A stretch of DNA of 64,000 nt. Source: a virus (Duplodnaviria; Heunggongvirae; Uroviricota; Caudoviricetes). The position numbers and the translations under genes were made by a program. The stretch lies in IMG/VR virus record IMGVR_UViG_2724678985_000012. One strand, written 5' to 3'. Under the pieces are notes generated by a model, which was given only the letters and a program-made list of their open reading frames with translations, was not told the origin of the DNA and made no database searches. Of the stretch, positions 9,839 to 52,345 are shown piece by piece (position 1 is the stretch's first letter; each line of letters opens with the position of its first letter).

Positions 9839-10019
9839 TTTGCTGTTTCTAAATCGGAATGTATGATCTGCATCATCGACTGAAGTCATCCATTGCTGAA
9901 ATTTTTAGTTGATCTTCCATGTTTTCAGGCTTATATTCATGCCGTCGTAGCAAATTCTGCGACCAGGTTTGACAGCCTGAATGTTAGTGCGGACAACCGC
10001 AGATTTCCGATATTGCGGT

Positions 10020-10183
10020 ATTTTTGTGTCCGTAAACCGCGTTACGCCCGAATTATGGTGGGGCGTGATGGGGAGGCTTCGGCCTGCTGGTTTCACTAAC
10101 GCCAGTCTGTCAACCCTGTCACGTCCTGCCACCTGTTTGACAGCGGGTAGCAGGTTGTTAAACCTGTTAGTGAGGCCGTAACT
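10020..10183 (+). ncRNA. c4-like antisense RNA / icd leader region of immI module 1 (boundaries approximate)
   Basis: structured leader directly upstream of icd-like ORF; internal complementary segments GGTTTCACTAACGCC / CCTGTTAGTGAGGCC. Confidence 0.3.
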
Positions 10184-20806: not shown

Positions 20807-22015
20807 ATGAGTCAACACACTGATACTTCTAATCTGGAAATTATCTCGACAGCAATTGAAACGCTGCGCACACAAATCGCTCTTATACAGAAACGGAATC
20901 CGGGTGATGACCTGTCAAAGCGACTGCACGAGAGTGTCATTGCCACTACAGATAACCTGGTGGCGGAAATCAACAAGCTGCTTGATGATGGGGCAGTTGA
21001 TTACAATAAGCTGGTGGATCAGTTTGAGGAATACCAACAAGCCGTTAATGATGGCTTGATCCGTTTTTCACAAGTCACAGGCGTATCAGCGACAGTTGAA
21101 AGCCTGGGTGATGCAGTTAATCAATTTGCCGCGAATATGCGTAATGAGATCGGCAATCTGGAAGCGCGTCTTGAACAGGCAAATACACTGCGTAAATCTG
21201 CCGAAGCCGATTTGAACCGTTACAAAAAAGACTATCCGCCCAGCCTGACAAAGCGGCTGGATGTTGCGGAGAAGGATAACCGCGCGCTGAAAAGAGAGCG
21301 CCGGGAACTAAAAGAGCGTTTAACCAAGCTCAATCAGCAATGCATTGATTATCAAGGCGAAGGCGTCACACTGCGTAAAAAGTTGGCTACAGCGCAGAGC
21401 ATTATCGAAACATTAAAGCGAGAGTGCTCACAGCTTGGTCACGATCTGAACCGTGCTTGTGGCATGGGACAAAGACCAGAGACATTTCCACTCATGTATG
21501 ATGGAAGGGATGCCATTGCCTACATCCATGAGTATCCGCACGGCCTGGTTGCGGAAACAGGGCAGCGTGGCGAAGCACTGTTGACGGCTAATTACCATCA
21601 ACAAATCAGAACCAATCGCCTGTTAACGATGGATGTGATCCCATCGGTATGGGGAACGCCGCTTTACTATCGCCTGCCGGGCTTCGAAAAGGACTGGAAT
21701 ACCGACATAGACGAATGTCTCGCAGATAAAATTATGGCGTACCTGGAGACGGATTTTCCGCGCTTATATCGCCGGATTATGGACTCTAAGGATGCGCCAA
21801 TCGATGAATTAAAAATGCGTCCGGAGACGCTGGAGGCAATCAAGCAGACGGAGTTTGATACTGTATTCAGTGTGGCCTGCATTCCAAGCTGTTTCCATGA
21901 AAGCATCCCGTTCATGCAAGGAGATCGTCGTCAGGAAATCATTGACGCTTGCCGGGTATGGGCGAACGAATGGGATAAGAAGAATGGGGGTGTAGAAGAT
22001 CTTTATGGGAAATAA
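20807..22015 (+). CDS. hypothetical coiled-coil protein
   Basis: about 402 aa; N-terminal coiled coil, C-terminal globular domain; start chosen at ATG 20807. Confidence 0.4.
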   Translation: MSQHTDTSNLEIISTAIETLRTQIALIQKRNPGDDLSKRLHESVIATTDNLVAEINKLLDDGAVDYNKLVDQFEEYQQAVNDGLIRFSQVTGVSATVESLGDAVNQFAANMRNEIGNLEARLEQANTLRKSAEADLNRYKKDYPPSLTKRLDVAEKDNRALKRERRELKERLTKLNQQCIDYQGEGVTLRKKLATAQSIIETLKRECSQLGHDLNRACGMGQRPETFPLMYDGRDAIAYIHEYPHGLVAETGQRGEALLTANYHQQIRTNRLLTMDVIPSVWGTPLYYRLPGFEKDWNTDIDECLADKIMAYLETDFPRLYRRIMDSKDAPIDELKMRPETLEAIKQTEFDTVFSVACIPSCFHESIPFMQGDRRQEIIDACRVWANEWDKKNGGVEDLYGK

Positions 22016-22032
22016 TGTGTTAGAAATCTAAA
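22016..22032 (-). promoter_or_regulatory. C1-operator-like motif site 5
   Basis: GTGTTAGAAATCTAAAATC. Confidence 0.45.
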
Positions 22033-23249
22033 ATCACAATTCGAATGTATTGATTGTGGAGATAACTTAACATAGAATTTTCCTTGCTGGTGGGCAGTAC
22101 CCACGTTTCGCTTGCTGGGCTTGATAGTCACTTATTGGTTATTGTTCGCCCACCAGCATTTAACAAATTAAAGTGTTAGAAAAGTATGGTAATGCAAGAG
22201 CACGCTTTGGCACCGTGCAGGCCAAAGTTCAGCAGGTTTAGTGCGGAAAGTGGTTTCAGAGAGAGCACTTTGCGGAGTAAACGACAATACATGTTGAGCC
22301 ACGGAAGGTCTTTTTAAGGTGTTCATTGATGATGGTCCGGCAGAGAGTAACGGTACATGCTGCATCTAATCATCAATGCACATCTTCAACATTAAGGAGG
22401 CATAGGGATTTTTGTGGCGGTTACCTTTTGCCCTGAGTCTCCTTAATGTTGCGGTAATGCACCTATGCGGATGTGGCCTTGCATTGTGTCTTGAAAGAAT
22501 GGGGTAAGGCCGGGGATATCCCCAGGGGGAGGCACCCCCGCTGCAACGAACAGCCACAGACGGCAGTCGAGTGATGGAAACGTGTAAAGACTTTAAACCT
22601 CGTTACGGCTGGCGTGGCAAACGCGACAACCGAGACAGAGCGGTGACGGGCGGAGAGAGTGCCGCATCAAGAAAGAAGCCGACTTGTGATCCCTTTCTGC
22701 GGGCATTTGAAAGTGAATCCAGCTCAGGCAGTCGGCTTCTTTCTTGTGTGAGATGTAGCGTATTTGCCCATCTTCGGGTGGGCTTTTTTAGGGTTTTCGT
22801 CATGGTTAGCGACTTTGCGGCGGTTTAGAAACCGACCATTAAAGTAAATGCAAACGATGATCTGATGATGGTAGCGGCCTAAGAAGCCAGACGCCACGGG
22901 GTATGAGTCGTCCCCCGTCAAAAAATCGACCGCAGAGTGTCCCCGTCTGTGTATTAGGGAACGGGGAGGCATAACAGGCAAGGGCGCTGGTGTGATTAAC
23001 CAGATGAATGAGAAGGGTCAGGTCTTTCTGGTCAGCGCCCTTACCTGTTACGTCCCTCCCGCGTAACAGCCATTGATTAATGGCTTTCTGGGATAACATC
23101 CTACTACGGGTATATCCCGTCATGCTGAAGGCGCTAATCACGCTGGAAGCCAGGGTTGTGCATCCCCTGTTACCGAATTGCAGCCAGGGCGCGGTGCGCC
23201 GAAAAGCATACGGAGGTGGAAGCCCTCGCCGGAGACGTACCCGGCAAGT
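22033..23249 (+). other. about 1.2-kb GC-rich non-coding leader of the tRNA array with many stable hairpins; candidate structured ncRNA
   Basis: no convincing ORF (only short low-complexity frames); multiple perfect 10-14 bp stems and terminator-like gcccatcttcgggtgggctttttt near 22763. Confidence 0.4.
22171..22187 (-). promoter_or_regulatory. C1-operator-like motif site 6
   Basis: AAGTGTTAGAAAAGTATGG. Confidence 0.45.
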
Positions 23250-23326
23250 GATGGTGTAGCTCAGTAGGATAGAGCAGCAGCCTTCTAAGCTGTCGGTCGG
23301 TGGTTCGAATCCACCCACCATCGCCA
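23250..23326 (+). tRNA. tRNA-Arg (anticodon UCU)
   Basis: 77 nt cloverleaf: acceptor GATGGTG/CACCATC, anticodon loop CTTCTAA, T-loop TTCGAAT, encoded CCA. Confidence 0.85.
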
Positions 23327-23331
23327 ATTTA

Positions 23332-23418
23332 GGGGAGTTAGTCCGTAGGGGTAGCGGGGTAGACTGTAAATCTACTGTCATTGCGACTCGGGTGGTTCGA
23401 CTCCATCACTCCCCACCA
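23332..23418 (+). tRNA. tRNA-Tyr (anticodon GUA), long variable arm
   Basis: 87 nt; anticodon stem-loop GTAGA-CTGTAAA-TCTAC as in E. coli tRNA-Tyr; acceptor GGGGAGT/ACTCCCC; CCA. Confidence 0.75.
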
Positions 23419-23422
23419 AATT

Positions 23423-23498
23423 GCCGGTTTAGCTCAGTTGGTAGAGCGCCTGCCTTGTAAGCAGGATGTCAGCGGTTCGAGTCCGTTAACCGGCACCA
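23423..23498 (+). tRNA. tRNA-Thr (anticodon UGU)
   Basis: 76 nt; acceptor GCCGGTT/AACCGGC; anticodon loop CTTGTAA; CCA. Confidence 0.85.
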
Positions 23499-23704
23499 AC
23501 ACAACAGGTAAGGGCATTCTCCCTTATGGGGCTTGGCTTAAATGCATCGAGTGCTCTTACCGTTGTGATGAAGTGCAGCTCTTTGAAGCAACCAGAAGAT
23601 AAGCATCTGGCTTCACAACATAAACCGCAGGAACGACCAATAAACGGTAGTCCGTATGGAGAACACCCCGTTGAGGAAGAGGCCTGGCCGGAACCGTAAC
23701 CGGC

Positions 23705-23803
23705 ACCACAACGTTGAGAACACTGGCGTAACGGGGTCATATCCCAATCTATGAATAAATGTTGCGTTGCAGCGTGACAACCAGTGTTCTCAACATTGTG
23801 GTG
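23705..23803. repeat. long inverted repeat (20-bp arms) of the tRNA-island leader/trailer repeat family
   Basis: CACCACAACGTTGAGAACACTGG ... CCAGTGTTCTCAACATTGTGGTG; related copies at 23498-23518, 23562-23592, 23881-23902, 24080-24111. Confidence 0.7.
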
Positions 23804-23900
23804 AATGCACAGGCTGATGTGCCGCAACTACAGTAGTGCGCGCTTTGCGGGGCTTGCTACAACCCTGTGTCGGAGTTCAGCACCGACCATCACAATCACT

Positions 23901-23987
23901 GGAGAGTAGGGAGCATGGTGCTCAAGCGGTCTTGAAAACCGTCCCATTGCGCAAGCGATGATGGTTCGATTCCATTACTCTCCGCCA
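23901..23987 (+). tRNA. tRNA-Ser (anticodon UGA), class II with long variable arm
   Basis: 87 nt; acceptor GGAGAGT/ACTCTCC; anticodon stem-loop GCGGT-CTTGAAA-ACCGT; CCA. Confidence 0.7.
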
Positions 23988-24250
23988 GTGCAACGTTAAG
24001 AGTATTTGGCTAATTAAGCGAATGCCGGAAGCAGAACCGGATCACCAAATGCGTACAGGCGTCATCGCCGCCCAGCCAGCCAAGTGCTCTTACCATTGCG
24101 GTGAATGCGGCTAAGCGCACGCGGAACAGTTAAAACAATCCTCCTTAGTGGTTAAGTCAAACATCCCGGCGTTAATTGTTAACTGGTTAACGTCACCTGG
24201 AGGCACCAGGCACCGCAGCTTTTTTATTCGGTAAATAATGGAGTGAGAGG

Positions 24251-25294
24251 ATGCAGAACAATCCGAACAAATGTCGAACGCTATGGGTGCGGTTATATAT
24301 TTATGTCGTCCTCTGTTTGATTGTGTCACTGGTTCTGTATGTTTGGCTTTTGCCAAATATGATCTCATCTGACAGCACAATACTTGTATTGTTGGGAGTC
24401 CTTCTCGCGCTCATTTACCCGGCTTTTGCAGTAGTCTTTTTTCGTGAAAAAACCAGGAAATTGATTAATGAAAAAACGTTGATTAGTGCAGCGATTATTT
24501 TTGGTTCTTTATGTCTGACCGGATGCGATCGGGTAGAGCCAGGTAACGTAGGGATCAAAGTAAATAAGCTGGGGGATGATAAAGGTATCGGTGAAGTAGT
24601 TGGCGTTGGTCGCTACTGGACAGGCTTGAATACTGAAGTTTATATCTTCCCGACCTTTAAGCAAATGAAGACATACGATGAGCCGTTCAGCTTCCAGATG
24701 AGCGACGGAACAACCATTGGTTACCACATCGGCGTAGCCTACAAGGTTGATCCAGCAAAAGTCACAACGGTATTTCAGACCTATCGCAAAGGTGTAGATG
24801 ATATTACTGATACCGATCTACGCCAGAAGGTTGCAGATGCTCTGAACCGGTTAGCCAGCAAAATGACCACCGACAAATTTATCGACGGTGGCAAATCTGA
24901 ATTGCTTGATGCAGCCCTTAAAGACATTCAGGAAGAAATGACGCCCATCGGTATTCAGGTAATGAGCCTCTCATATGTGGGCAAGCCGGAGTACCCGCCA
25001 ACCGTTATCGACAGCATTAATGCCAAAGTCACGGCGAACCAGAAAACTCTGCAACGCGAGCAGGAAGTCAAGCAACGCGAAGCAGAAGCCAACATGCTGC
25101 GCGCAGAAGCTGCTGGACAGGCCGATGCCATTCGCACAAAAGCCCAGGCTGAAGCTGATGCCATTCGTTTACGCGGTGAGGCTCTGCGCCAGAACCCCGG
25201 CGTTATGGAGTTGGAAGCGATCAACAAATGGAACGGAACGCTACCGCAGTATATGACCAGTAATACCGCTGTTCCGTTTGTTCCGGTGAAATAA
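24251..25294 (+). CDS. SPFH (band-7/prohibitin)-domain membrane protein
   Basis: N-terminal TM/lipobox-like LTGC; SPFH-like core then Ala/Glu-rich coiled coil; true start likely downstream (24358 or later). Confidence 0.55.
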   Translation: MQNNPNKCRTLWVRLYIYVVLCLIVSLVLYVWLLPNMISSDSTILVLLGVLLALIYPAFAVVFFREKTRKLINEKTLISAAIIFGSLCLTGCDRVEPGNVGIKVNKLGDDKGIGEVVGVGRYWTGLNTEVYIFPTFKQMKTYDEPFSFQMSDGTTIGYHIGVAYKVDPAKVTTVFQTYRKGVDDITDTDLRQKVADALNRLASKMTTDKFIDGGKSELLDAALKDIQEEMTPIGIQVMSLSYVGKPEYPPTVIDSINAKVTANQKTLQREQEVKQREAEANMLRAEAAGQADAIRTKAQAEADAIRLRGEALRQNPGVMELEAINKWNGTLPQYMTSNTAVPFVPVK

Positions 25295-25448
25295 CCAAAT
25301 AGATAACATGATGGAATTTTGGACGTTTGCCGACAAGAACCCTTGGTGGACATTTTTATTTCTGCTGGTGGTTGCATATGGGGTCGAGCAAGCAGCAAAA
25401 GCCTTACGCGGTCCTGGCAAAAAGCGTAAGCGGAATTAACAGTAATCT

Positions 25449-25524
25449 GGCCCTTTAGCTCAGTGGTTAGAGCTGGCGACTCATAATCGCACGGTCACCG
25501 GTTCAAGTCCGGTAGGGGCCACCA
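25449..25524 (+). tRNA. tRNA-Ile2 (anticodon CAU, ileX-like; Met not excluded)
   Basis: 76 nt; near-identical architecture to E. coli ileX; anticodon loop CTCATAA; CCA. Confidence 0.75.
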
Positions 25525-25978
25525 TATTTGGTTGTAACACGGCGTCTGGCACATGCGTCGTTAGCGGTCTGGTGACGTTAAAGGGGTATCTTTGACTCTT
25601 GCTCAGGCAAACGGACCAGGTAGCCGGAATGTGCAAGCCCCGATAACAGTGGCGGACCGAGGACTCACCATCCTGGCGATTCGGTGTGACAGCCGGAAGA
25701 GCACGGCGCACAACAGGAAAAGGCGTTTAATTAGCGTGAGCGCCGTTTCCGTTGTGGTAATTGCGGCTATGCGCTCGTGACGAAGCCATTTTTATTCACT
25801 ACGTTCTGATAAGTGACGTCGCCAGGAGTGGCTAACCTGGCAGGTGGAGGCACCACCGCCACAACTCCTTTCAATTCATCATATAGCCGCTCAGGCTGTA
25901 CCCCTTAATTAATACGAATTTACGACATCACTACCGGCACTTCCGGGGGATAGTCGCGCGTGTAAAAAAGGAGACGTT

Positions 25979-26554
25979 ATGTTAATGGCGAACGATAACG
26001 CATATGCAGAAGAAGATCTCATTTTGAGTGACTTCATAGGGAAGCGGGAACGCTGGACCCAAAAGCGAGAGGAACTTTACGCCTCATTAGTTCGCAAAGG
26101 CGTCAATATCGAAACCGCACAGAGCGGCGATATGACAGTGGTAAGCGTTGGATTGCACGGTGTAAGCGTGTCAGCAATCAATCATGAGCCATACGTTGCG
26201 TTATCCGAGTCAATGGTAAGGTTAGTTAAGTTCCTGAAGTACACAGAAGCGAATAATGTAATCATTGGCAAAAAGAATATCCCTTTTTCCTCGGCTTTTT
26301 ACTGGATGATGAAAGGGCTTGATGCCCGGCGGACATCATGGCCTAAAGGGAGCTATATATCGATGTTCCGTGGCAGCATTGGCAGCAAAGAAAAGCTCTT
26401 CGAATTCTTGCCGGAAGAGGCATTCGATATTGTGGAAGGGTGCGATGTGATGGTGATGCCTCGCCTGGTAATGATGAATGGGGATTTACAGGCGCAGACA
26501 GACTGGTTTGCAACTGGTGTGGATATTATCGCGACTGACTGGGAGGCTTTCTGA
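25979..26554 (+). CDS. two-domain protein with C-terminal DUF2829-like domain
   Basis: 191 aa; C-terminal MKGLDARRTSWPKGSYI ... DIIATDWEAF matches DUF2829 signature. Confidence 0.45.
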   Translation: MLMANDNAYAEEDLILSDFIGKRERWTQKREELYASLVRKGVNIETAQSGDMTVVSVGLHGVSVSAINHEPYVALSESMVRLVKFLKYTEANNVIIGKKNIPFSSAFYWMMKGLDARRTSWPKGSYISMFRGSIGSKEKLFEFLPEEAFDIVEGCDVMVMPRLVMMNGDLQAQTDWFATGVDIIATDWEAF

Positions 26555-27054: not shown

Positions 27055-27447
27055 ATGGAACAAATCAGCAGCGCAGAAATTGCGGATATCATGATCAGGG
27101 CTGACTGCTATCTGACAGTCACTGAAATTACCACTCTCGCCAAAGAAAAATACCCTCATCTCCATGTTTCACGAGTAAGTGTAACTAACATCATTCGTCA
27201 TTTTGTTCGTTCAAGCAGGGCAATCTGTGAGCTGGATGATCGTGTGTATCCACGAAAATACTGGCTACATGGTCTGAACGGATATCAGTTCAAGGTGCGC
27301 GGGCGCACGCCTGAATACGGTAGCTTACTGGTTAAAAACTGTAGCAGGAAATCAGTCGAACAGGCGCGAAAAGAGCAACGAGAGCTGGTGGACATGGCGA
27401 ATAAGCTGTGGAATGCCGCCGTTAAAAAGCGTGGTGTTGCTTTATGA
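27055..27447 (+). CDS. putative late-promoter activator (Lpa-like) by synteny
   Basis: 130 aa, immediately upstream of pacA-like gene; operator-like motif in its promoter region. Confidence 0.3.
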   Translation: MEQISSAEIADIMIRADCYLTVTEITTLAKEKYPHLHVSRVSVTNIIRHFVRSSRAICELDDRVYPRKYWLHGLNGYQFKVRGRTPEYGSLLVKNCSRKSVEQARKEQRELVDMANKLWNAAVKKRGVAL

Positions 27448-36503: not shown

Positions 36504-36560
36504 CTCGTGTACTCATTATGTGTACACAATTATAAACCTCACAGGCATAAAGCACCAGCA
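36504..36560 (-). promoter_or_regulatory. phd-doc promoter/operator region
   Basis: GTGTAC-containing palindromes (cgtgtactcattatgtgtacac) upstream of phd. Confidence 0.6.
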
Positions 36561-36569
36561 CTTTGCAGC

Positions 36570-36946
36570 TTAAATAACCGGACAATCATCAAACTCCCCA
36601 CTTCGGGCATCATTGATGACATGAGTGATCACACCAAAAACAGCATTACTTCCCGTGCATCCATCGTCATCTACTGGTAACGCCTCTTTCTTCCCGGTGC
36701 TTAAATCCTCCAGGTGCTGGCGCGGATACTTCCTGTATCTCTTTATGCGATATTCACCCTCCATAGCGCACACAAGCAGCGAACCATCAACTGGAGTAAG
36801 CGAAGAATCAACCACCAGCATATTCCCTCACGGTGATGGCTATCAGCTGCCCGCATGAAGTAGGTTGCTGATGGATGCCTGATTAGTTGCTGATCAAGAG
36901 AAATTCGGCTTTCAACATAATCCGCCGCAGGAGAAGGGAAGCCCAT
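36570..36946 (-). pseudogene. humD: humD (UmuD-prime homolog) with apparent frameshift
   Basis: N-terminal MGFPSPAADYVE...YFMRAADSHHREGI in one frame, C-terminal LVVDSS...FGVITHV in another; 2 nt where 3n expected. Confidence 0.6.
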
Positions 36947-37215
36947 AGCGTTTTCACCTCAATAATACTGTTCATTTATACAGTATACATTAAATGGACA
37001 CCTTTGGTGCAAACGCGTTACGTACATCAACCACCGCTGATGATTTTGTGCTCTTTGCTACTATTCATCACCAACGGATCAGCGTAACCTCGTTGCCAAT
37101 CAGTTAATAAGGAATTGGCTATGCCTAATCGCATTCCTCTCGATCCTGTATTGCCCAAAAATTTTGACTGCACTCCTAACGAGAAACATTTTAAAATAAA
37201 GCTCGCCGGTCATCA

Positions 37216-37500
37216 TTAACTCCTACATTCAGGGCAAGAGTTCCCTTCCGCAAAATAGGGGAAACTGCTATCAAGCTCATCACACCATCTGCGATGGTCG
37301 TAGCACCAAAACGCCTCCCACGGTACACGGAAATACTTCATCCACCAGGACACTCGATCAGGTATATCTGCTGGTGGCAGCTCTTCTGGCAATAATTTGC
37401 CTGATAATTCCCTTTCCGCCCGCGCCAGCATTCCTTTTAGACTCGCATTTTCTTTTTCAAGAATCTCTACGCGAGCCTGTAACTCAGCTTTCGTTGGCAT
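37216..37500 (-). CDS. hypothetical protein
   Basis: about 94 aa from MPTKAELQARVEILEKEN; coiled coil then Cys-rich tail. Confidence 0.3.
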   Translation of the reverse strand: MPTKAELQARVEILEKENASLKGMLARAERELSGKLLPEELPPADIPDRVSWWMKYFRVPWEAFWCYDHRRWCDELDSSFPYFAEGNSCPECRS

Positions 37501-38251
37501 GGCCCGCCTCATGTTTATCAGCCACCAGCGGCAATAAAGCCTTAGCCATTTCATGAACCAACATGGCATCAATGACGCCTAGCGTATGGCCCGGCTTAAT
37601 CTTTAATGCGGCCTCAAGATAGCCTCTTTCCAGAGTGGTTTTTACGCTTTTCCTAGGCGCTTGTTGGGAACCATCCGGAAGAACCGGATGGTTCCCAGCC
37701 TCATAAGCTACCCGCAACCAGTGCATGAATGTTTCCGCAGACACACAACCGCAGTCCACATCGATTTCCCCGCGTTGCTGCTCCAGCCATTGCTCAAAAT
37801 CTAACTTGTAAGCCTTACTTTCAGACTTGACTTTCTGAGACGCTATGCGAGCTGCTTCATACTGTTCACGAGTGACAACCGATGTAAACGCACTGCGATC
37901 AAGGTCACTGATATCGCAAATAATGCCATCAATGGAATAATTCTTTGATGATTGGTAATTTTTATGGCGCGTACCAAAAAGAACCGTAGCGCGACTACTA
38001 CCTGGCATCGTAATGGATAGATGGCAAAAATCTTTTCCATCAGGCCATCCATGCCCCTTAGATAATTCCTTCACTAACAAGTCAATCAGTGTCATAGCTT
38101 TACCATCCTTGCAAGGCGCTAAAGCTATTTTGGCAAGTTCCAATACTTCATCTGCTGTGTATCCAGCACCGTGACCATACATTTCGATACGGGAAATAAT
38201 ATCTGAAATACGCTCTTTAGTGATTCTTGTCATAGTTTTATTTCCTTGCAT
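37484..38251 (-). CDS. hypothetical protein
   Basis: 255 aa ORF. Confidence 0.4.
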   Translation of the reverse strand: MQGNKTMTRITKERISDIISRIEMYGHGAGYTADEVLELAKIALAPCKDGKAMTLIDLLVKELSKGHGWPDGKDFCHLSITMPGSSRATVLFGTRHKNYQSSKNYSIDGIICDISDLDRSAFTSVVTREQYEAARIASQKVKSESKAYKLDFEQWLEQQRGEIDVDCGCVSAETFMHWLRVAYEAGNHPVLPDGSQQAPRKSVKTTLERGYLEAALKIKPGHTLGVIDAMLVHEMAKALLPLVADKHEAGHANES

Positions 38252-38439
38252 GGTTCGCCTTTACGGCAAACAGCTACACGGTCATTTCTTACATTAACCA
38301 CAGTCACCGTTCCGTCATCGCATTGAATAACGATGAAAGGGTGTTCATTCTCTTTTGTGCAATGTTGCTGTTCCCCTGCTGTAACAGTGAGGGGAATTAA
38401 TAAAATAATAATTACTGCGAATTTACTAAATGTTGCCAT
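38230..38439 (-). CDS. small secreted Cys-containing protein
   Basis: 69 aa; N-terminal signal-peptide-like segment. Confidence 0.35.
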   Translation of the reverse strand: MATFSKFAVIIILLIPLTVTAGEQQHCTKENEHPFIVIQCDDGTVTVVNVRNDRVAVCRKGEPCKEIKL

Positions 38440-38463
38440 AGCAATCTTTCTTTCTGTTTTTCA

Positions 38464-38757
38464 TTATGGTTGAATCCAGTTATCTTCAATAGCAATGCTT
38501 AATCTTTGTAACCATTCTGCTAATTTCAGCATTGCTTCTCTTTCGCTTAAACCACACGGAAAATCATCAAGCGATATTGTTGGCTTGAAGTTTCCTAAAT
38601 TATCCATTTCGACGGTCAGATTTTGCTCCAGCACGGTATTTCTTACGCGGCTATTGTGCCGAAGCAAATATACTGAACGTGATTTATTGGTTTTGTGGTC
38701 GAAAGTATATTCGGTAAGTATCATCTGGCTTCCGCCATGATTATTACCGCGCCACAT
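38464..38757 (-). CDS. hypothetical protein
   Basis: 97 aa ORF. Confidence 0.35.
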   Translation of the reverse strand: MWRGNNHGGSQMILTEYTFDHKTNKSRSVYLLRHNSRVRNTVLEQNLTVEMDNLGNFKPTISLDDFPCGLSEREAMLKLAEWLQRLSIAIEDNWIQP

Positions 38758-38780
38758 AATTACTCCGTGTTAATTGAAAT

Positions 38781-39062
38781 TTAGCTATTAATCTTCACTT
38801 TTATCGCGAACACCTTTACCGGTTTATCACCGAAGTGCGGATGTGTGATTGTTTTTATTTCATATCCGTTATACGGGACGTCAATTCTGCGACTGAAGTC
38901 TTCGCGCTTCGGATATCCCTTTGTGATAATCAGGCGGTCATACTTACGGTTAACGAGGCGCTTATTCCAGTAGTCATTACACAGGCGATACTCTTCCGTT
39001 TTCTCCCCTCGAATCATGGCATCGAAGTATTCACCTTTAACGGCAAGTTGCAGGTTAGCCAT
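38781..39062 (-). CDS. ASCH-domain protein
   Basis: about 93 aa from MANLQLAVKGEYFDAMIRGEKTEEYRL; ASCH-like signature. Confidence 0.45.
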   Translation of the reverse strand: MANLQLAVKGEYFDAMIRGEKTEEYRLCNDYWNKRLVNRKYDRLIITKGYPKREDFSRRIDVPYNGYEIKTITHPHFGDKPVKVFAIKVKINS

Positions 39063-39322
39063 TACCTCACCTCCAGTCTCCATACCGCCTGACCAATCCG
39101 GCTGGCATGGGTATCTTTGGATACTGTTCCGTCTTTAGCCAGCTCCATAAGAATTTTGCGCAAATCTGCCGAACGCCATTCTTCATCAGGAAATTCCTTC
39201 TCCATTGCCAACCGCAGATTCCAGGTTGCCATCCTGAATGGATATTCCCCGCCGAGAGCTTTATCTTGCAGGGCAGCCCGGGAACGCATCACCTGCAAAA
39301 CCTTCTCTTTTACATCCATCAT
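39062..39322 (-). CDS. hypothetical protein
   Basis: 86 aa ORF. Confidence 0.35.
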   Translation of the reverse strand: MMDVKEKVLQVMRSRAALQDKALGGEYPFRMATWNLRLAMEKEFPDEEWRSADLRKILMELAKDGTVSKDTHASRIGQAVWRLEVR

Positions 39323-39894
39323 TTCGCCTCCTGCGGCGGTTCCGGTAGCGGCATCCAGTGAGTTGCTTGCTCAATACCATTACCCGGCTTAATCGTTGCA
39401 TCTCCGCGCCGAAAGGTGCTTCCGGTATAGCGTGCGGAGCATATTAGCGGTTCAACCAGAGAGCTATCGAAATTCACCGAAATAAGCACGTTCTGGTTCT
39501 TTTCAGGCATCCGCTCACTACAGCTTATCCAACCATCCGGAGTTACCGGCACTGGCTGGGCGGTGTAAAGTGGAACAACTCGCCCTCCCCATTGCTTAAC
39601 ACTACTCTCAGCGAACACTAAATGCTCAGTCCGATAATACCCAGGGGCATCAATATCTTTTCTTTCGCTATCCCACATGTAAACCACCGGTTCTGCTTCC
39701 AGTGATGCCAGTGCAATTCGTGCCAGCTCACGCACAACTTCAGGGGGCGCGTAACGGTCATTCAGGTCATCCCACAGGCGTAGCATGTTATCGCTACCAG
39801 GGTGAACATCCTCGTTAGTTCCGGCAAGCGCACTAATAACCTCATCGGCTGCTTCAATAATTTTCTGTGCCTGTTCTCTGGTAATAGTGGTCAT
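39319..39894 (-). CDS. DUF551-domain protein
   Basis: 191 aa; C-terminal ...HWMPLPEPP motif. Confidence 0.45.
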   Translation of the reverse strand: MTTITREQAQKIIEAADEVISALAGTNEDVHPGSDNMLRLWDDLNDRYAPPEVVRELARIALASLEAEPVVYMWDSERKDIDAPGYYRTEHLVFAESSVKQWGGRVVPLYTAQPVPVTPDGWISCSERMPEKNQNVLISVNFDSSLVEPLICSARYTGSTFRRGDATIKPGNGIEQATHWMPLPEPPQEAK

Positions 39895-40172
39895 TTGTTA
39901 ATCCTTAAAACTTTATGCCCTGGCGCAAAAGCACGTGTTTTGTCTTTGCTTATTCGCCAGCCATCCTTACGTGCCTCTTTTGCACAGCCAGCCCATGACG
40001 TACCGATATATTCACCGAAGTCTGGTACTGGATATACACCTTCCGTACACTGGCGGCAGTCACAATAGAGATGCATGGTGTAACTTGCGGCAATAGCCAT
40101 ATCACTCTCCTTTAGTACGCAAGTGGTTTTTCCAGCGGTTTTGCGCCGCGCTGGGCTTTTTGCAAAAACCAC
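39891..40172 (-). CDS. small Cys-rich protein
   Basis: 93-aa ORF; likely starts at internal MAIAASYTMHLYCDCRQC. Confidence 0.3.
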   Translation of the reverse strand: MVFAKSPARRKTAGKTTCVLKESDMAIAASYTMHLYCDCRQCTEGVYPVPDFGEYIGTSWAGCAKEARKDGWRISKDKTRAFAPGHKVLRINK

Positions 40173-40276
40173 AATCCATCATCCCGTAATATTTCATCAA
40201 CCCCATCCGTCGGTTGCTGAGTCTCACCCACTGCCAGACGCTAGGGGCGTTTCTACGAACTAACAGAATCTTTGCT

Positions 40277-40843
40277 TTACGGTTTTTCATCGTTTTGCTC
40301 TCCTGCGTCTCCTTTGATGCAAATGCCAGCGACGCGTGGCACATTAACTTCCACGATGCGCACAGTTGGTTTGTACATCTCAATCGCTGTCAGCCAGTCA
40401 GCGCCGGTCATATGCTTTTCTGCATCGCCATTAGTCCATTGAACCGGCACACCAATAGCTTTCATCGCAATTTCTATTTCCCCGGCGATGGCGCTTTTTC
40501 CGCAACCAGTAAAACCAGAAACAACGACAAGAACTTCGCCTTTGGCTGGTTTTATTTCCCGTGCTTCCAGTTCTGCAATGCGCTTCTCTGCGGCTTCCAG
40601 CTCAACACGCAGCTTCCCTACCGTTAGCGCAATTTCCTCGTTCTCCTGGTCGCGGCGTTTGATGTATTGCTGGTTTCTTTCCCGTTCATCCAACAATGCC
40701 AGCGCGATATCTGGCGAAAAGTGCTTCATAAAATCGTTAAGCGCATTAATTCGCTGATCGAAAGGCATTACAGGTGCTTCACCAGCAATTTTTGTTTTTT
40801 CAGCGATTTCACGAAGTTTTTGATAGTCAATTTTGTTTGTCAT
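40277..40843 (-). CDS. Ead/Ea22-like protein with P-loop-like C-terminal segment
   Basis: 188 aa; N-terminal MTNKIDYQKLREIAEK, coiled coil, VVVSGFTGCGKS. Confidence 0.35.
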   Translation of the reverse strand: MTNKIDYQKLREIAEKTKIAGEAPVMPFDQRINALNDFMKHFSPDIALALLDERERNQQYIKRRDQENEEIALTVGKLRVELEAAEKRIAELEAREIKPAKGEVLVVVSGFTGCGKSAIAGEIEIAMKAIGVPVQWTNGDAEKHMTGADWLTAIEMYKPTVRIVEVNVPRVAGICIKGDAGEQNDEKP

Positions 40844-41718
40844 ACCACTACCTCTTCGAATTTCAACTCCAATTGGTCACCCCAGATTTCACATGATTCG
40901 GAACACGAACCAGTATCAAACCGCTTGGCCTGCACCATCGCCTGATACAAATTTCTGTAGTCGCTGTCGGCATACATTCTGGCAATCCCGTCAAGCGTCA
41001 GGTGACCACGGTACATAACGTCTTTACCTGTTCTGCGATGACCATCCCTGACGTGTTTGCCTGTAACCAGTTCATTAAAAACCCGCATCAGACCAGGTTC
41101 GTCTTTACATGCAAGCCCCAGCTTTTGCGTTGACTTTTTGATGCAAAAAACACAGTTCCCGAGGTGCTCCGGGATTTGCAAATCAAAAGGTTGTTTTCGC
41201 CACCACCGAATAACATCCGACTTATCAAAATCTGACAGTTCTGCAAGATACCGGACGCCCGGTTTCGGTTTCAGCCTACGGTGTTCGTCCGCACGAATAC
41301 CCAGCCATGTGATGTAATTCCCTCGCCCAAAATGGTCATCGCAATATTTCGTGAAAGGGGTGAGTTTTAGCCTGTCAGTACAGAACGCGCCGCCGATGTA
41401 AGGCGTACCGTACTTTTTAACCATGTCCATAAACGGTTTAAGCACCGGCATTCGCGTCTGAATATCCTTTGGTTCCCATTCCGTATAACCATTTGGCTGC
41501 CCAAGTTCTGGATTTATATCGACCTGCAACACCGTTAGCGGTACGTTCCAGAACTTCACAACCTCACGAATAAAGCGATACGTCAGAGGATGTTCACAGC
41601 CGGTATCCATAAAAATGAAATGGACGCTAGCGCCAGCTTTTCGCTGTGCTTCCATCAGATGAACGAGATAAGCCGATGTTCGTCCACCTGAAAAGCTGAC
41701 AACTTGATGCATACTCAC
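40840..41718 (-). CDS. PAPS-reductase-family PP-loop ATP pyrophosphatase
   Basis: 292 aa; N-terminal VVSFSGGRTSAYLVHLM PP-loop motif. Confidence 0.65.
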   Translation of the reverse strand: MSMHQVVSFSGGRTSAYLVHLMEAQRKAGASVHFIFMDTGCEHPLTYRFIREVVKFWNVPLTVLQVDINPELGQPNGYTEWEPKDIQTRMPVLKPFMDMVKKYGTPYIGGAFCTDRLKLTPFTKYCDDHFGRGNYITWLGIRADEHRRLKPKPGVRYLAELSDFDKSDVIRWWRKQPFDLQIPEHLGNCVFCIKKSTQKLGLACKDEPGLMRVFNELVTGKHVRDGHRRTGKDVMYRGHLTLDGIARMYADSDYRNLYQAMVQAKRFDTGSCSESCEIWGDQLELKFEEVVV

Positions 41719-41721
41719 GGT

Positions 41722-42387: not shown

Positions 42388-42418
42388 CCCGCGTTCTTTC
42401 ATTTTTTGATCCACCTCA

Positions 42419-43414: not shown

Positions 43415-43454
43415 AATGCATACCGACTCTGTTTTGTTCCGATCGGTAAAATAA

Positions 43455-43471
43455 TATGTTAGAAAACTAAA
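43455..43471 (-). promoter_or_regulatory. C1-operator-like motif site 10 (inverted pair with 43478-43487)
   Basis: ATGTTAGAAAACTAAAATCAATGTTCTAACG. Confidence 0.5.
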
Positions 43472-43512
43472 ATCAATGTTCTAACGTGATTTTGAGTGCG
43501 TAAATGATTTGA

Positions 43513-44205: not shown

Positions 44206-44513
44206 GCGGCAACCTTCTCACGCAGCCAGATACAAACCGGACCATCTTCAGTGTCATGAATAGAGCCAACAAACCAGCCTTCACCCTCTGGTCGCTCCGG
44301 TTCCCAGGCGGCAATATCGGGACCAGCTGCGTCCAGATCAAAATCATCTTCATCCATACTGCGAATAGTCCACTGAAGATTATTTTCCTTCATCCAGGCG
44401 TCAAATTCCTCAGTGGAAATATATTCACGACCTGCGCAAAACTTCTCATACTCCGGATGTGTCCAGCAGCCATATTCATCACGTTCTACCGGCATTTCTT
44501 TAATGATGCTCAC
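44202..44513 (-). CDS. hypothetical protein
   Basis: 103 aa ORF, 4-nt overlap with neighbours. Confidence 0.4.
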
Positions 44514-46410: not shown

Positions 46411-46415
46411 CCTCT

Positions 46416-52321: not shown

Positions 52322-52345
52322 TCCGTCATCCGTGGAGGAAGGACA

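What the first reader, a model, noticed from the sequence alone, without database searches (positions are those of the whole stretch)
23250..25524. Five-tRNA island supplying rare-codon decoders
tRNA-Arg(UCU), tRNA-Tyr(GUA), tRNA-Thr(UGU) are back to back (4-5 nt spacers), tRNA-Ser(UGA) follows 400 bp later, and tRNA-Ile2(CAU) lies after the SPFH gene. AGA, ACA, UCA and AUA are low-usage codons in enterobacteria, so the set looks like codon-usage compensation for AT-rich phage genes. All encode their own CCA.
Basis: seen in the sequence. Interest (0 to 1): 0.45.

Follow-up and report, generated by a model that had tools for sequence, protein, structure and literature searches.

The report
Five-tRNA array of a phage-plasmid
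The five tRNA genes are real and sit in a P1/D6-like plasmid prophage of E. coli; four of them read codons that this phage uses about twice as often as its host, so it is a largely ordinary phage tRNA cluster, though it is assembled from swappable parts in an unusual way.

Summary
Observation confirmed: ARAGORN finds exactly five tRNAs at the stated coordinates (Arg-UCU, Tyr-GUA, Thr-UGU, Ser-UGA, CAU), all ending in CCA. The window is a P1/D6-like phage-plasmid. Identical E. coli plasmids in RefSeq already carry these five annotations, and the tRNA sets of P1 (Asn, Thr, Ile2) and D6 (Asn, Thr, Ser, Ile2) are published.

The CAU tRNA is an ileX-type tRNA-Ile2. It does not for Tyr (ranks 23 and 24).

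New details:
- The Arg tRNA is a chimera. Its acceptor stem and T arm are identical to a phage-plasmid tRNA-Asn; only the D loop and anticodon arm are Arg-type.
- Tyr is a clean 92-nt cassette insertion of virulent-phage type.
- Ser fits the non-canonical 8/4 tRNA-Ser class.
- The tRNAs are flanked by a conserved family of 19–25-bp hairpins, and mosaic joints between variants fall at these hairpins.
- The same units occur in SSU5-like phage-plasmids, and the same anticodon set occurs in rV5-like phages.

A secondary anti-defence role for Tyr and Thr is possible but untested. Interest is moderate to low; this is a new member of a known kind.

The parts
22970..23052 (+). Hairpin module upstream of the array (23-bp outer helix), same family as the hairpins after the tRNAs
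   Evidence: Inverted repeat I2. Fold -38.4 kcal/mol, z -5.3. Arms align with the other copies.
23250..23326 (+). tRNA-Arg(UCU), a chimeric gene. The outer 47 nt (acceptor stem, T arm, G73-CCA) are identical to the tRNA-Asn(GUU) of SSU5-like and Ro157-type phage-plasmids. The inner 30 nt (D loop with A20, anticodon arm) are of tRNA-Arg type.
   Evidence: ARAGORN; Rfam 72.1 bits. Differences from SSU5-like Asn: 0/47 outer, 14/30 inner. Differences from rV5-like FFH2 Arg: 21/47 outer, 5/30 inner. It occupies the slot of P1 trnA with near-identical flanks. Best full-length phage hits are tRNA-Asn genes. Best hits to the central 43 nt are tRNA-Arg genes.
23332..23418 (+). tRNA-Tyr(GUA), class II. 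It is a 92-nt cassette (tRNA plus spacers) inserted between slot 1 and tRNA-Thr.
   Evidence: ARAGORN; Rfam 41.9 bits. Present or absent as a clean indel among variants. 93% identical to rV5-like phage tRNA-Tyr, about 91-92% to T-even-type phages, 66% to host tyrU. Found in 244 PLSDB plasmids.
23423..23498 (+). tRNA-Thr(UGU), the constant member of the array (P1 trnT allele)
   Evidence: ARAGORN; Rfam 74.9 bits. 75/76 identical to P1 trnT, 61/76 to host thrU. Anticodon arm reads U36-A-A-G39-C40-A41, as in T5 tRNA-Thr; the host has U39.
23500..23567 (+). Hairpin module directly after tRNA-Thr (19-bp outer helix)
   Evidence: -32.5 kcal/mol, z -5.6. P1/D6 carry a different loop between the same arms, and p98228 carries both versions in tandem.
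23697..23800 (+). 12-nt exact copy of the tRNA-Thr 3' end (TAACCGGCACCA, 23697-23708), followed by a hairpin module (23707-23800). Likely the remnant of a lost or duplicated tRNA-hairpin unit.
   Evidence: Direct repeat D10 and inverted repeat I3, 23 nt and 96% complementary. Fold -40.8 kcal/mol, z -6.3. Ro157 has a 161-nt insertion exactly at 23704/23705.
23901..23987 (+). tRNA-Ser(UGA) of non-canonical type: A8, a 4-bp D stem with a 5-nt loop, a long variable arm and G73. It fits the 8/4 (8-bp acceptor, 4-bp T stem) tRNA-Ser class.
   Evidence: ARAGORN. Rfam tRNA-Sec model 44.6 bits, no tRNA-model hit listed. The D6 record notes 'AA not called by tRNAscan-SE'. Across 11 relatives, pair 8:65 is AU x8, GC x2, CG x1, whereas the 7/5 alternative 49:65 fails in 2 of 11. 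90% identical to rV5-like phage tRNA-Ser.
23988..24101 (+). Hairpin module directly after tRNA-Ser. Its interior is conserved after the tRNA-Ser of rV5-like phage FFH2.
   Evidence: 21 pairs, -40.4 kcal/mol; FFH2 trailer. Homology with P1, Ro157 and the SSU5-like plasmid resumes at 24080-24085.
24251..25294 (+). Protein module inside the array: a small membrane ORF fused in this window to an SPFH/Band 7 lipoprotein gene. P1 and D6 carry tciA/B(/C) in this position.
   Evidence: Pfam Band_7 E 1.9e-30. Replaced by tciABC in P1 and tciAB in D6. A6 here versus A7 in the identical plasmid.
25449..25524 (+). tRNA-Ile2 (gene anticodon CAT, expected to be lysidine-modified to read AUA); identical to P1 trnI
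   Evidence: ARAGORN 'Met'(cat); Rfam 64.7 bits. 76/76 identical to P1 trnI, 68/76 to ileX, 55/77 to metT. PGAP calls it tRNA-Ile.
25709..25756 (+). Hairpin module 185 nt after tRNA-Ile2. It marks the downstream end of homology with P1.
   Evidence: 19 pairs, -23.2 kcal/mol, z -5.4. Homology with P1 and Ro157 ends at 25710; ban follows there, whereas a Tad2-like gene follows here.

Best explanation
This is the tRNA array of a P1/D6-like phage-plasmid, the counterpart of P1's trnA-trnT...trnI locus. It lies in a long co-directional block that continues into a Tad2-like gene, lpa and pacAB.

Most likely it is transcribed with that block during lytic growth, processed by host enzymes, and charged by host synthetases. 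The CAU tRNA would first be lysidine-modified by host TilS. The array would then enlarge the pools of four minor host decoders: Arg-UCU for AGA/AGG, Ile2 for AUA, Thr-UGU for ACA and Ser-UGA for UCA. The phage's genes use these codons about twice as often as host genes. Tyr-GUA is an add-on that codon demand does not explain.

The array is built from exchangeable units, each a tRNA followed by a long hairpin:
- Slot 1 holds Asn or Arg. The Arg allele was made by replacing only the D loop and anticodon arm of the resident Asn gene.
- Tyr and Ser are present or absent as cassettes.
- Thr and Ile2 are constant.

What is shown: the genes, their identities, the codon enrichment, the chimera, the cassette indels and the conserved hairpins. 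What is inferred: expression timing, aminoacylation, modification, any benefit to the phage, and what the hairpins do (processing stems and/or recombination joints).
For: **Genes and anticodons:**

**Element identity and context:** 99.9-100% identity to seven ~75-96-kb E. coli plasmids that PGAP annotates with the same five tRNAs. In P1, the annotation places trnA, trnT and trnI between the C1-controlled P1ban promoter and ban. All ORFs from about 12 kb to 30.3 kb are on the + strand. Downstream lie Lpa (Pfam E 5e-57), pacA and pacB.

**Codon test:** phage/host ratios are AGG 3.33, AGA 2.32, AUA 1.93, ACA 1.90 and UCA 1.62, ranking 1, 2, 5, 6 and 8 of 61. Among the 11 codons below 8 per thousand in the host sample, these are five of the six most enriched. 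Together they make up about 49 per thousand phage codons against about 25 in the host sample, and they are spread over nearly all genes.

**Ile2 identity:**, plus PMC11947777.

**Arg identity elements:** A20, C35, U36 and G73 can be read in the sequence.

**Chimera:**

**Cassette structure and sharing:**. The rV5-like phage FFH2 carries Arg-UCU, Tyr-GUA, Ser-UGA, Thr-UGU, CAU and Pro. T4 carries Arg, Ile, Thr and Ser; their anticodons were not read here.

**Hairpins:**
Against: - Tyr codons are not enriched (ratios 1.10-1.12), nor is AAC, the codon of P1's tRNA-Asn. Codon demand therefore cannot explain every member of the array.
- Enrichment of host-rare codons is typical of mobile DNA in general, so the match may partly reflect shared ancestry of phage genes and phage tRNAs rather than selection for supply.
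- No promoter was identified next to the array, and the only promoter-like site lies 1.2 kb upstream.
- A terminator-like hairpin at 22766-22783 lies between that site and the tRNAs.
- No P1-type C1 operator occurs anywhere in the window, so the timing of expression is unknown.
- The host codon sample is only four 25-kb K-12 regions with mechanically called ORFs. It includes a cryptic prophage and an rRNA operon. This should make the test conservative, but it is rough.
Confidence: 0.6

Rival explanations
1. Anti-defence supply. Some members, chiefly Tyr and Thr (and Asn in sister elements), are kept because host or competitor immune nucleases destroy exactly these tRNAs. The phage copies would replace or out-compete the cleaved host tRNAs, as T5's tRNAs do against PARIS and retron-Eco7.
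For: - Retron-Eco7 PtuAB depletes tRNA-Tyr, and an extra, highly expressed tRNA-Tyr rescues phages (PMC11555353).
- The window's tRNA-Thr has G39, the same U36-A-A-G-C-A as T5's tRNA-Thr, whereas host thrU has U39.
- Tyr and Asn are the members that codon use does not explain.
- Tyr is an accessory cassette found in 243 plasmids, against 652 that carry the Thr allele.
- A Tad2-like (anti-Thoeris) gene lies 455 nt downstream.
- The tRNA-Tyr is of virulent-phage type, not host type.
Against: - The element has no tRNA-Lys(UUU), the main AriB target, which the T5 work found necessary for escape.
- All five anticodon loops are identical to the host's, unlike the loop mutations proposed for nuclease-resistant mycobacteriophage tRNAs (PMC10264068 abstract).
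- P1/D6-type tRNA-Asn keeps a perfect U-A-A-U-C-A site.
- G39 pairs with C31 in the anticodon stem and could be a neutral difference with nothing to do with AriB.
- No strong promoter was found.
- Nothing was tested experimentally.
Confidence: 0.2
2. Benefit to the lysogen. The plasmid prophage expresses the tRNAs in the carrier cell and improves translation of rare-codon-rich horizontally acquired genes, like a natural rare-tRNA helper plasmid, thereby helping plasmid maintenance.
For: - The element lives as a plasmid and also carries a host-type glnS. Published work on D6-like plasmids interprets this gene as a possible fitness or maintenance gene (PMC6799933).
- The array also holds moron-like protein modules: SPFH here and tciAB(C) in D6 and P1.
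Against: - In P1 the homologous tRNAs lie in the ban operon, downstream of a promoter annotated with a C1 repressor operator, so they should be repressed in lysogens.
- There is no expression evidence here.
- glnS uses none of the five rare codons in 392 codons, so it does not depend on the tRNAs.
Confidence: 0.1
3. Passenger DNA. The tRNAs are carried along by recombination among phages and give no appreciable benefit. The variation among elements is neutral churn.
For: The locus is highly mosaic, with a remnant tRNA 3' end (23697-23708), duplicated modules and frequent gain and loss of units.
Against: - All five genes keep intact cloverleaves, identity elements and CCA.
- The chimera preserves both halves of its acceptor stem.
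- Relatives of the Ser gene show compensatory changes.
- Thr and Ile2 are near-invariant across P1, D6-like and other variants.
- The Thr allele is in 652 plasmids at 95% identity or more.
- The anticodon set matches the most enriched rare codons.
Confidence: 0.07

Closest known systems
Bacteriophage P1 tRNA genes trnA (Asn), trnT (Thr) and trnI (Ile2) in the ban operon
   Same: Same locus and orientation, with homologous flanks from 22763 onward. trnI is 76/76 identical and trnT 75/76. The slot-1 gene has the same acceptor stem. Hairpin modules are present in both.
   Different: Slot 1 is Arg(UCU) instead of Asn(GUU). Tyr and Ser are added. tciABC is replaced by a membrane ORF plus SPFH. The gene after trnI is Tad2-like/lpa/pacAB instead of ban. 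No P1 C1 operator was found.
D6 and D6-like plasmid prophages (published set: Asn, Thr, Ser, 'Met'; also glnS)
   Same: Same genome type: glnS, a higBA-type toxin-antitoxin pair plus phd-doc, and the same gene after the array (D6 orf6; PGAP names the identical protein in the window's plasmid 'Thoeris anti-defense Tad2 family protein'). Same Thr, Ser and CAU tRNAs (PMC6799933).
   Different: D6 has Asn in slot 1, no Tyr, and tciAB instead of SPFH.
tRNA clusters of virulent coliphages: rV5-like (Vequintavirus FFH2) and T4
   Same: FFH2 carries Arg-UCU, Tyr-GUA, Ser-UGA, Thr-UGU and CAU, the same five anticodons, with Arg and Tyr adjacent. Tyr is 93% and Ser 90% identical, and the trailer after Ser is conserved.
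   Different: Thr, CAU and the outer parts of Arg are not close to the FFH2 or T4 genes (58-83% identity). Those phages are virulent, carry more tRNAs, and T4 has a homing endonuclease in its cluster.
SSU5-like phage-plasmids (about 110 kb)
   Same: pRHB19-C05_2 has Asn-Tyr-Thr-Ser in the same order. Tyr is about 99% and Ser 97% identical. Its Asn is identical to the outer 47 nt of the window's Arg. The same hairpin family is present.
   Different: It is an unrelated phage backbone with different flanking genes. No CAU tRNA was found in the 6 kb examined, and slot 1 is Asn.
(8/4) tRNA-Ser / allo-tRNA class (Mukai et al., PMC5389517)
   Same: The Ser gene scores on the tRNA-Sec model without being tRNA-Sec. 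It has a long variable arm, G73, a compact D arm, an 8th acceptor pair supported by covariation, a 4-bp T stem and a Ser anticodon. The class was reported in phages and proteobacteria.
   Different: The D stem here is 4 bp with a 5-nt loop, not the long stem with tetraloop drawn for allo-tRNAs. No structure probing or serylation test was done.
T5 tRNAs that neutralise PARIS (Lys, Thr, Asn) and retron-Eco7 (Tyr)
   Same: Same anticodons for Thr and Tyr. The Thr gene shares G39 with T5 tRNA-Thr at the AriB recognition motif.
   Different: No tRNA-Lys. Overall identity to the T5 genes is only 63-81%. No strong promoter was seen. Function is untested.
Alloacceptor tRNA remoulding / anticodon shifts (mitochondria, eukaryotic nuclear genomes)
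   Same: A tRNA whose body is closest to a different acceptor family at the same syntenic position, with a changed anticodon and switched identity elements (PMC4783518 and PMC3923123 abstracts).
   Different: Here the change is a block replacement of about 30 nt, including three fully swapped stem pairs, within otherwise identical sequence. This looks like recombination with a tRNA-Arg donor rather than point mutation of the anticodon after duplication. No phage example turned up in the one literature search made.

Membership tests
Bacterial-type tRNA genes | Detected by independent tRNA predictors, with a cloverleaf and a defined anticodon | tested here: met
   ARAGORN finds 5 of 5. The Rfam tRNA model finds 4 of 5 at 41.9-74.9 bits. 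The fifth, Ser, is found by the tRNA-Sec model at 44.6 bits and is annotated tRNA-Ser by PGAP.
Bacterial-type tRNA genes | Genomically encoded 3' CCA, as in E. coli tRNA genes | tested here: met
   All five sequences end in CCA after the discriminator base.
tRNA-Ile2 (lysidine-dependent AUA decoder) | CAU anticodon on a body closer to host tRNA-Ile2 than to elongator tRNA-Met | tested here: met
   68/76 identical to ileX versus 55/77 to metT/metU.
tRNA-Ile2 (lysidine-dependent AUA decoder) | E. coli TilS identity elements: base pairs 4:69 and 5:68, and the anticodon stem | tested here: met
   C4:G69 and C5:G68 as in ileX, where metT has U4:A69 and A5:U68. Anticodon stem-loop GGCGA-CUCAUAA-UCGC is identical to ileX. 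The elements are taken from PMC11947777.
tRNA-Ile2 (lysidine-dependent AUA decoder) | Lysidine at position 34 and charging with isoleucine | not testable with these tools
   Needs mass spectrometry or tRNA sequencing and an aminoacylation assay.
P1/D6 phage-plasmid tRNA locus | Syntenic position with homologous flanks and shared Thr and Ile2 alleles | tested here: met
   Homology blocks with P1, D6, Ro157 and two D6-like plasmids. trnT is 75/76 and trnI 76/76 identical.
P1/D6 phage-plasmid tRNA locus | Control by a C1 repressor operator, as at P1 Pban | tested here: not met
   No match to ATTGCTCTAATAAATTT within 3 mismatches anywhere in the window. A divergent D6-type operator is not excluded.
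(8/4) tRNA-Ser / allo-tRNA | 8-bp acceptor stem (pair 8:65) with a 4-bp T stem | tested here: met
   Over 11 relatives, pair 8:65 is AU x8, GC x2, CG x1 and all pair. The competing 49:65 pair is GU x8, GC x1 and unpaired x2. The variable-arm closing pair is CG x10, AU x1. The sample is small and was chosen for a non-U at position 8.
(8/4) tRNA-Ser / allo-tRNA | Long variable arm and G73 (SerRS elements), with a Ser anticodon | tested here: met
   A variable arm of up to 6 bp closed by a GCAA loop, G73, and anticodon UGA.
(8/4) tRNA-Ser / allo-tRNA | tRNA-Sec-like D arm (long stem, tetraloop) | tested here: inconclusive
   Here the D stem is 4 bp with a 5-nt loop. Relatives have 4-5 bp with 4-6-nt loops, and the stem covaries. 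This is compact, but not the 6-bp stem with tetraloop form.
Codon-compensating phage tRNAs | Cognate codons rare in the host and enriched in phage genes | tested here: met
   Met for Arg, Ile2, Thr and Ser (ranks 1, 2, 5, 6 and 8 of 61). Not met for Tyr (ranks 23 and 24).
Codon-compensating phage tRNAs | Loss of the tRNA reduces phage translation or yield | not testable with these tools
   Needs deletion mutants and growth curves.
Anti-defence phage tRNAs (T5 type) | Same anticodon as a tRNA targeted by a known immune nuclease | tested here: met
   Thr(UGU) is a PARIS AriB target and Tyr(GUA) is the retron-Eco7 PtuAB target. The main AriB target, Lys(UUU), is absent from the window.
Anti-defence phage tRNAs (T5 type) | Sequence change at the nuclease recognition site relative to the host tRNA | tested here: inconclusive
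   Thr has G39 where the host has U39, as T5 tRNA-Thr does. All five anticodon loops equal the host's, and the determinants for tRNA-Tyr are unknown.
Anti-defence phage tRNAs (T5 type) | Rescue of infection in cells carrying the defence system | not testable with these tools
   Needs plating assays on PARIS and retron-Eco7 hosts.
Alloacceptor-remoulded tRNA | At a conserved syntenic position, the body is closest to a tRNA of another acceptor family while the anticodon and identity elements are switched | tested here: met
   Same slot and flanks as tRNA-Asn. 0/47 outer differences against 14/30 inner. A20, C35 and U36 are gained and G34 and U35 lost. Best database matches are Asn for the whole gene and Arg for its centre.
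Alloacceptor-remoulded tRNA | The remoulded tRNA is charged with the new amino acid | not testable with these tools
   Needs aminoacylation with ArgRS and AsnRS.

The most novel reading that the evidence does not exclude
The array is a cassette system. tRNA-plus-hairpin units are exchanged among unrelated enterobacterial phages (P1/D6-like, SSU5-like, rV5-like), with the conserved 19-25-bp hairpins serving as the joints, and perhaps also as RNase III-type processing stems. The decoding specificity of a resident unit can be re-programmed in place by swapping only its D loop and anticodon arm, as in the Asn to Arg change. The resulting natural series of near-isogenic elements (Asn or Arg, with or without Tyr, with or without Ser) would reflect selection by both codon demand and tRNA-targeting immune systems.
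Probability: 0.3. Interest if true: 0.6.

Novelty: new member of a known kind. Interest (0 to 1): 0.4.

Why it matters
Why phages carry tRNAs, whether for codon supply or for escape from tRNA-cleaving immunity, is an old and currently active question. This locus will not settle it. It does offer a convenient natural experiment: many nearly identical plasmid prophages of E. coli that differ only in which tRNA sits in slot 1 (Asn or Arg) and in whether the Tyr and Ser cassettes are present.

The locus also gives a clear bacterial-virus example of a tRNA whose amino-acid identity was switched by replacing its inner part while keeping its outer stems. And it places a non-canonical 8/4-type tRNA-Ser in a genetically tractable E. 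coli element.

For annotation, two points follow. The 'tRNA-Met(CAT)' calls in these elements should read tRNA-Ile2. The Ser gene is real even though general tRNA models miss it.

Tried and rejected
- **P1 C1 operator.** The consensus was searched in the whole window with up to 3 mismatches and gave no hit, so P1-style control could not be shown.
- **Promoter and terminator scan of 21800-26100.** It found one promoter-like site, 1.2 kb upstream (fewer than the shuffles gave), and a terminator-like hairpin at 22766-22783. The array's promoter was not identified.
- **Rfam for the hairpins and spacers.** Only sub-threshold or spurious matches appeared: miRNA families, mascRNA at E 4.9 and permuted tmRNA at E 0.038. 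An STnc100 match at 39.4 bits (threshold 47) at 24097-24217 was kept only as a note.
- **P1-type hairpin loop as a degenerate tRNA.** The loop contains GGGTTCGAATCCC, but neither ARAGORN nor Rfam supports a tRNA there.
- **Hairpins as integron attC sites.** Rejected on reading the sequence. The arm ends (CACAAC...GTTGTG) do not fit the RYYYAAC/GTTRRRY cores as I recall them, and no integron integrase lies next to the array. The nearest recombinase genes are kilobases away.
- **ORF 23486-23827 on the minus strand (plp-like).** It has no Pfam hit and PGAP does not call it in identical plasmids. It is treated as non-coding, although P1 annotates plp and upl there.
- **A DicF-like sRNA upstream, as annotated in P1.** No Rfam DicF hit appeared in the window.
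- **Literature.** The P1 genome paper (PMC523184) and my guessed id for the D6 genome paper (PMC5800970) are not held in the library. Statements about them rest on the GenBank annotations and on PMC6799933.
- **Late genes.** A check for concentration of the rare codons in late or structural genes found no marked regional difference.

Full report
**Observation.** ARAGORN finds five tRNA genes in the window, all on the + strand and all inside the reported interval: Arg(tct) 23250-23326, Tyr(gta) 23332-23418, Thr(tgt) 23423-23498, Ser(tga) 23901-23987 and a CAT-anticodon gene at 25449-25524. Rfam's tRNA model confirms Thr, Arg, CAT and Tyr at 74.9, 72.1, 64.7 and 41.9 bits against a threshold of 29. 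The Ser gene is not listed at gathering thresholds. In a permissive scan it matches the tRNA-Sec model at 44.6 bits, just under that family's threshold of 47.

**What the element is.** The 2.8 kb around the island is 99.9-100% identical to seven E. coli plasmids of about 75-96 kb, and RefSeq already annotates them with tRNA-Arg, Tyr, Thr, Ser and Ile plus an SPFH protein. Phage matches are P1, P7, D6, RCS47 and other Punavirus-type phage-plasmids.
- The window carries D6-like hallmarks: a glutaminyl-tRNA synthetase gene at its end, RelE/ParE-HigA and Phd-Doc toxin-antitoxin pairs, and a Tad2-like gene, lpa, pacA and pacB right after the island (PMC6799933).
- In P1 the homologous genes trnA (Asn), trnT (Thr) and trnI (Ile2) lie between the C1-controlled P1ban promoter and ban.
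- Here every ORF from about 12 kb to 30.3 kb points the same way as the tRNAs. No P1-type C1 operator exists in the window and no convincing promoter lies next to the array, so the timing of expression is inferred, not shown.

**tRNA-Ile2.** The CAT gene is identical to P1 trnI (76/76). It is 68/76 identical to K-12 ileX and only 55/77 to metT/metU. It has the full ileX anticodon stem-loop and the C4:G69 and C5:G68 pairs, which are the major acceptor-stem identity elements for E. coli TilS (PMC11947777).

**tRNA-Thr.** It is the P1 allele (75/76) and 80% identical to host thrU.

**tRNA-Tyr.** It is only 66% identical to host tyrU, but 93% to the tRNA-Tyr of rV5-like phages and about 91-92% to T-even-type phages. 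Among variants of the locus it is present or absent as a clean 92-nt insertion between slot 1 and Thr.

**tRNA-Ser.**
- It belongs to a phage lineage found in rV5-like phages, T5-like and T4-like Klebsiella phages, and Acinetobacter and Streptomyces phages.
- It has A at position 8 instead of the near-universal U, and a 4-bp D stem with a 5-nt loop. The D6 authors noted that tRNAscan-SE would not assign it an amino acid.
- A pattern scan of viral contigs gave further relatives. In those with a non-U at position 8, positions 8 and 65 read A-U, G-C or C-G.
- On an 11-sequence alignment the 8:65 pair holds in all sequences, with three double changes. The canonical alternative 49:65 fails in two.
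- Together with the long variable arm and G73, this fits the 8/4 tRNA-Ser class that Mukai et al. found in phages and proteobacteria while screening false positives of the tRNA-Sec model (PMC5389517).

**tRNA-Arg is a chimera.**
- It occupies exactly the slot of P1/D6 tRNA-Asn, with flanks that are 99-100% identical among variants.
- Against the tRNA-Asn of an SSU5-like plasmid it has 0 differences in the outer 47 nt (acceptor stem, the first D-stem bases, variable loop, T arm, G73-CCA) and 14 in the inner 30 nt. Against the tRNA-Arg of phage FFH2 the pattern is reversed, 21 outer and 5 inner.
- In the phage collection the best full-length matches are tRNA-Asn genes, at 83% or less. The best matches to its central 43 nt are tRNA-Arg genes, at 91-95%.
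- The inner block brings A20, C35 and U36, the ArgRS identity elements as I know them, and removes G34 and U35, which AsnRS needs. Three anticodon-stem pairs are swapped on both sides.
- This looks like a patch replacement by recombination with a tRNA-Arg donor, not gradual mutation.
- The allele is in 84 PLSDB plasmids at 95% identity or more, but in no record of the phage collection.

**Codon test.** I called long ORFs mechanically in the window (62 ORFs, 50 kb) and in four 25-kb K-12 regions (82 ORFs) and compared codon frequencies.
- Phage/host ratios: AGG 3.33, AGA 2.32, AUA 1.93, ACA 1.90 and UCA 1.62, ranking 1, 2, 5, 6 and 8 of 61.
- Of the 11 codons below 8 per thousand in the host sample, these are five of the six most enriched. 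The sixth is CGA.
- Tyr codons (1.12 and 1.10) and AAC (1.06), the codon of P1's tRNA-Asn, are not enriched.
- The rare codons are spread over nearly all phage genes with no clear excess in any region. The captured glnS uses none of them in 392 codons.
- The window is 47.8% G+C, only mildly AT-rich.

**Architecture.**
- Slot contents vary between elements (ARAGORN):

| Element | tRNA order |
|---|---|
| P1 | Asn-Thr...Ile2 |
| D6 and p98228 | Asn-Thr-Ser...Ile2 |
| p1_035148 | Arg-Thr-Ser...Ile2 |
| Ro157c2YLVW | Asn-Tyr-Thr...Ile2 |
| This window | Arg-Tyr-Thr-Ser...Ile2 |

- The protein module between Ser and Ile2 is either tciAB(C) or a membrane ORF plus SPFH.
- An unrelated SSU5-like phage-plasmid has Asn-Tyr-Thr-Ser in the same order, with near-identical Tyr and Ser.
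- The virulent rV5-like phage FFH2 has Arg-Tyr-Ser-Thr-CAU-Pro. T4 has Arg, Ile, Thr and Ser among its eight tRNAs.
- In PLSDB, at 95% identity or more, the Thr allele is in 652 plasmids, Ser in 335, Tyr in 243 and the Arg allele in 84.

**Hairpins.**
- Thr, Ser and a 12-nt remnant of a tRNA-Thr 3' end (23697-23708) are each followed directly by a member of one family of long hairpins. Further copies lie 185 nt after Ile2 and upstream of Arg. The 5' arm is roughly CACAAC(A)GGTAAGGGCA and the 3' arm roughly TGCTCTTACCGTTGTG-GTGAATGC.
- Nine copies from the window, P1, a D6-like plasmid and the SSU5-like plasmid all form 19-25-bp outer helices (-23 to -41 kcal/mol, z -3 to -9). They have many compensatory differences, and their loops differ in length and sequence.
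- Homology breakpoints between the window and P1, Ro157, p98228 and the SSU5-like plasmid fall at tRNA ends or at hairpin arms: 23518, 23704/5, 23988, 24080-24085 and 25710.
- The hairpin family was found nowhere else in the window, and it matches no Rfam family.
- I read the hairpins as the joints of a modular array. Their length also suits RNase III-type processing stems. Neither role is shown.

**Mechanism and rivals.** The best-supported account is that the array supplements minor host decoders for a phage whose genes use those codons about twice as often, in the manner long proposed for T4. My confidence in it is about 0.6.

The main rival is supply against tRNA-cleaving immunity.
- In its favour:
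  - Retron-Eco7 depletes tRNA-Tyr, and extra tRNA-Tyr rescues phages (PMC11555353).
  - PARIS AriB cleaves Lys(UUU), Thr(UGU) and Asn(GUU) at a U-A-A-U-C|A motif, and U39 changes block cleavage (PMC12409363).
  - The phage tRNA-Thr has G39 exactly as T5's does, where host thrU has U39.
  - Tyr and Asn are the members that codon use leaves unexplained.
  - A Tad2-like gene is adjacent.
- Against it:
  - There is no tRNA-Lys.
  - All five anticodon loops equal the host's.
  - P1/D6-type Asn keeps a perfect AriB motif.
  - No strong promoter was seen.

I put this at about 0.2 as the main reason for the array, somewhat higher as a secondary role for Tyr. Benefit to the lysogen and neutral carriage are less likely, for the reasons given under the rival explanations.

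**Comparison and novelty.** The island is a member of the known P1/D6 tRNA locus and of the general class of phage tRNA clusters. The exact five-gene form is already annotated in RefSeq. I found no paper describing the Arg or Tyr variants, the chimeric origin of the Arg gene, the 8/4 character of the Ser gene in these elements, or the hairpin family. My literature access was limited, however: the P1 and D6 genome papers were not available, and one search for phage tRNA remoulding found nothing. I therefore file it as a new member of a known kind. It has some features worth a short follow-up, and I score interest at 0.4.

**Limits.**
- Gene calls for the codon test were mechanical, and the host sample is small. 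It includes a cryptic prophage and an rRNA operon, which should bias against the result.
- The 8/4 test rests on 11 sequences chosen for a non-U at position 8.
- Breakpoint clustering at the hairpins was read from pairwise BLAST maps without a formal null.
- Nothing about expression, charging, modification or phenotype could be tested here.

Noticed in passing
window 24471-24476 (ORF 24251-25294): The window has a run of six A where the otherwise identical plasmid NZ_AP022217.1 has seven. Here the 72-codon membrane ORF is fused in frame to the SPFH lipoprotein gene (347-aa ORF), and the normal lipoprotein start (ATG at 24468) is out of frame. This is either a homopolymer sequencing error or a real frameshift.
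   Followed up: yes
window 62702-64000, minus strand (cut by the window end): A glutaminyl-tRNA synthetase gene (Pfam tRNA-synt_1c E 2.5e-76 plus both anticodon-binding domains), known from D6-like plasmids. It uses none of AGA, AGG, AUA, ACA or UCA in 392 codons, unlike the phage genes around it, so it looks like a captured host-type gene.
   Followed up: partly
window 25979-26554: The gene right after the tRNA array has a Tad2-like (Thoeris anti-defence 2) domain at its C-terminus (Pfam E 1.1e-9), and PGAP names it a Tad2 family protein. It is followed by a 130-codon ORF, lpa (27055-27447), pacA and pacB.
   Followed up: partly
window 24097-24217: A sub-threshold match to the Salmonella sRNA family STnc100 (39.4 bits, threshold 47) lies just upstream of the membrane/SPFH ORF and ends in a terminator-like stem with a T run. 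It overlaps the 3' arm of the hairpin after tRNA-Ser. It may be a leader or sRNA that travels with the SPFH module, which is also found at about 87% identity in Stx, phiP27 and P88 phages.
   Followed up: no
window 24010-24075; locus L013 2610-2670: The interior of the hairpin after tRNA-Ser is about 85% conserved (by eye, not computed) after the tRNA-Ser of the rV5-like phage FFH2, although the outer stems differ. The tRNA and this trailer seem to move together. FFH2 also has an odd ARAGORN 'tRNA-???' at L013 2690-2788.
   Followed up: partly
locus L010 1606-1692 (also P1 L002 about 4303-4390): In P1, D6 and some D6-like plasmids the hairpin after tRNA-Thr has a different loop, and that loop contains a T-arm-like motif (GGGTTCGAATCCC). 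Plasmid p98228 (L009) carries both loop versions in tandem. No predictor calls a tRNA there.
   Followed up: partly
window 9931-9983, 10051-10136, 49217-49295, 49340-49427: Rfam finds two C4 antisense RNA genes (77.1 and 68.8 bits). One is preceded by a c4 a1/b1 target element, the other by an isrK-like RNA. Each lies next to Icd-like and Rha-type genes in the matching plasmid annotation. The element therefore seems to have two immI-like regions.
   Followed up: no
window 22766-22783: A strong terminator-like hairpin (GCCCATCTTCGGGTGGGC followed by TTTTTT) on the + strand lies exactly where homology with P1 begins. It corresponds to the end of P1's annotated dicF-like region. Rfam finds no DicF match here.
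   Followed up: no
window 36534-55825: The window is near-identical to plasmid NZ_AP022217.1 over 1-36534 (99.86%) and 98.6% identical over 55825-64000. In between it is mosaic (89-98% identity, with rearranged blocks), so the window does not come from that exact plasmid.
   Followed up: no
window 23486-23827, minus strand: A 113-codon ORF homologous to the region P1 annotates as plp/upl overlaps the 3' end of tRNA-Thr and two hairpin modules. It has no Pfam hit, and PGAP does not call it in identical plasmids. It is probably not a gene.
   Followed up: partly
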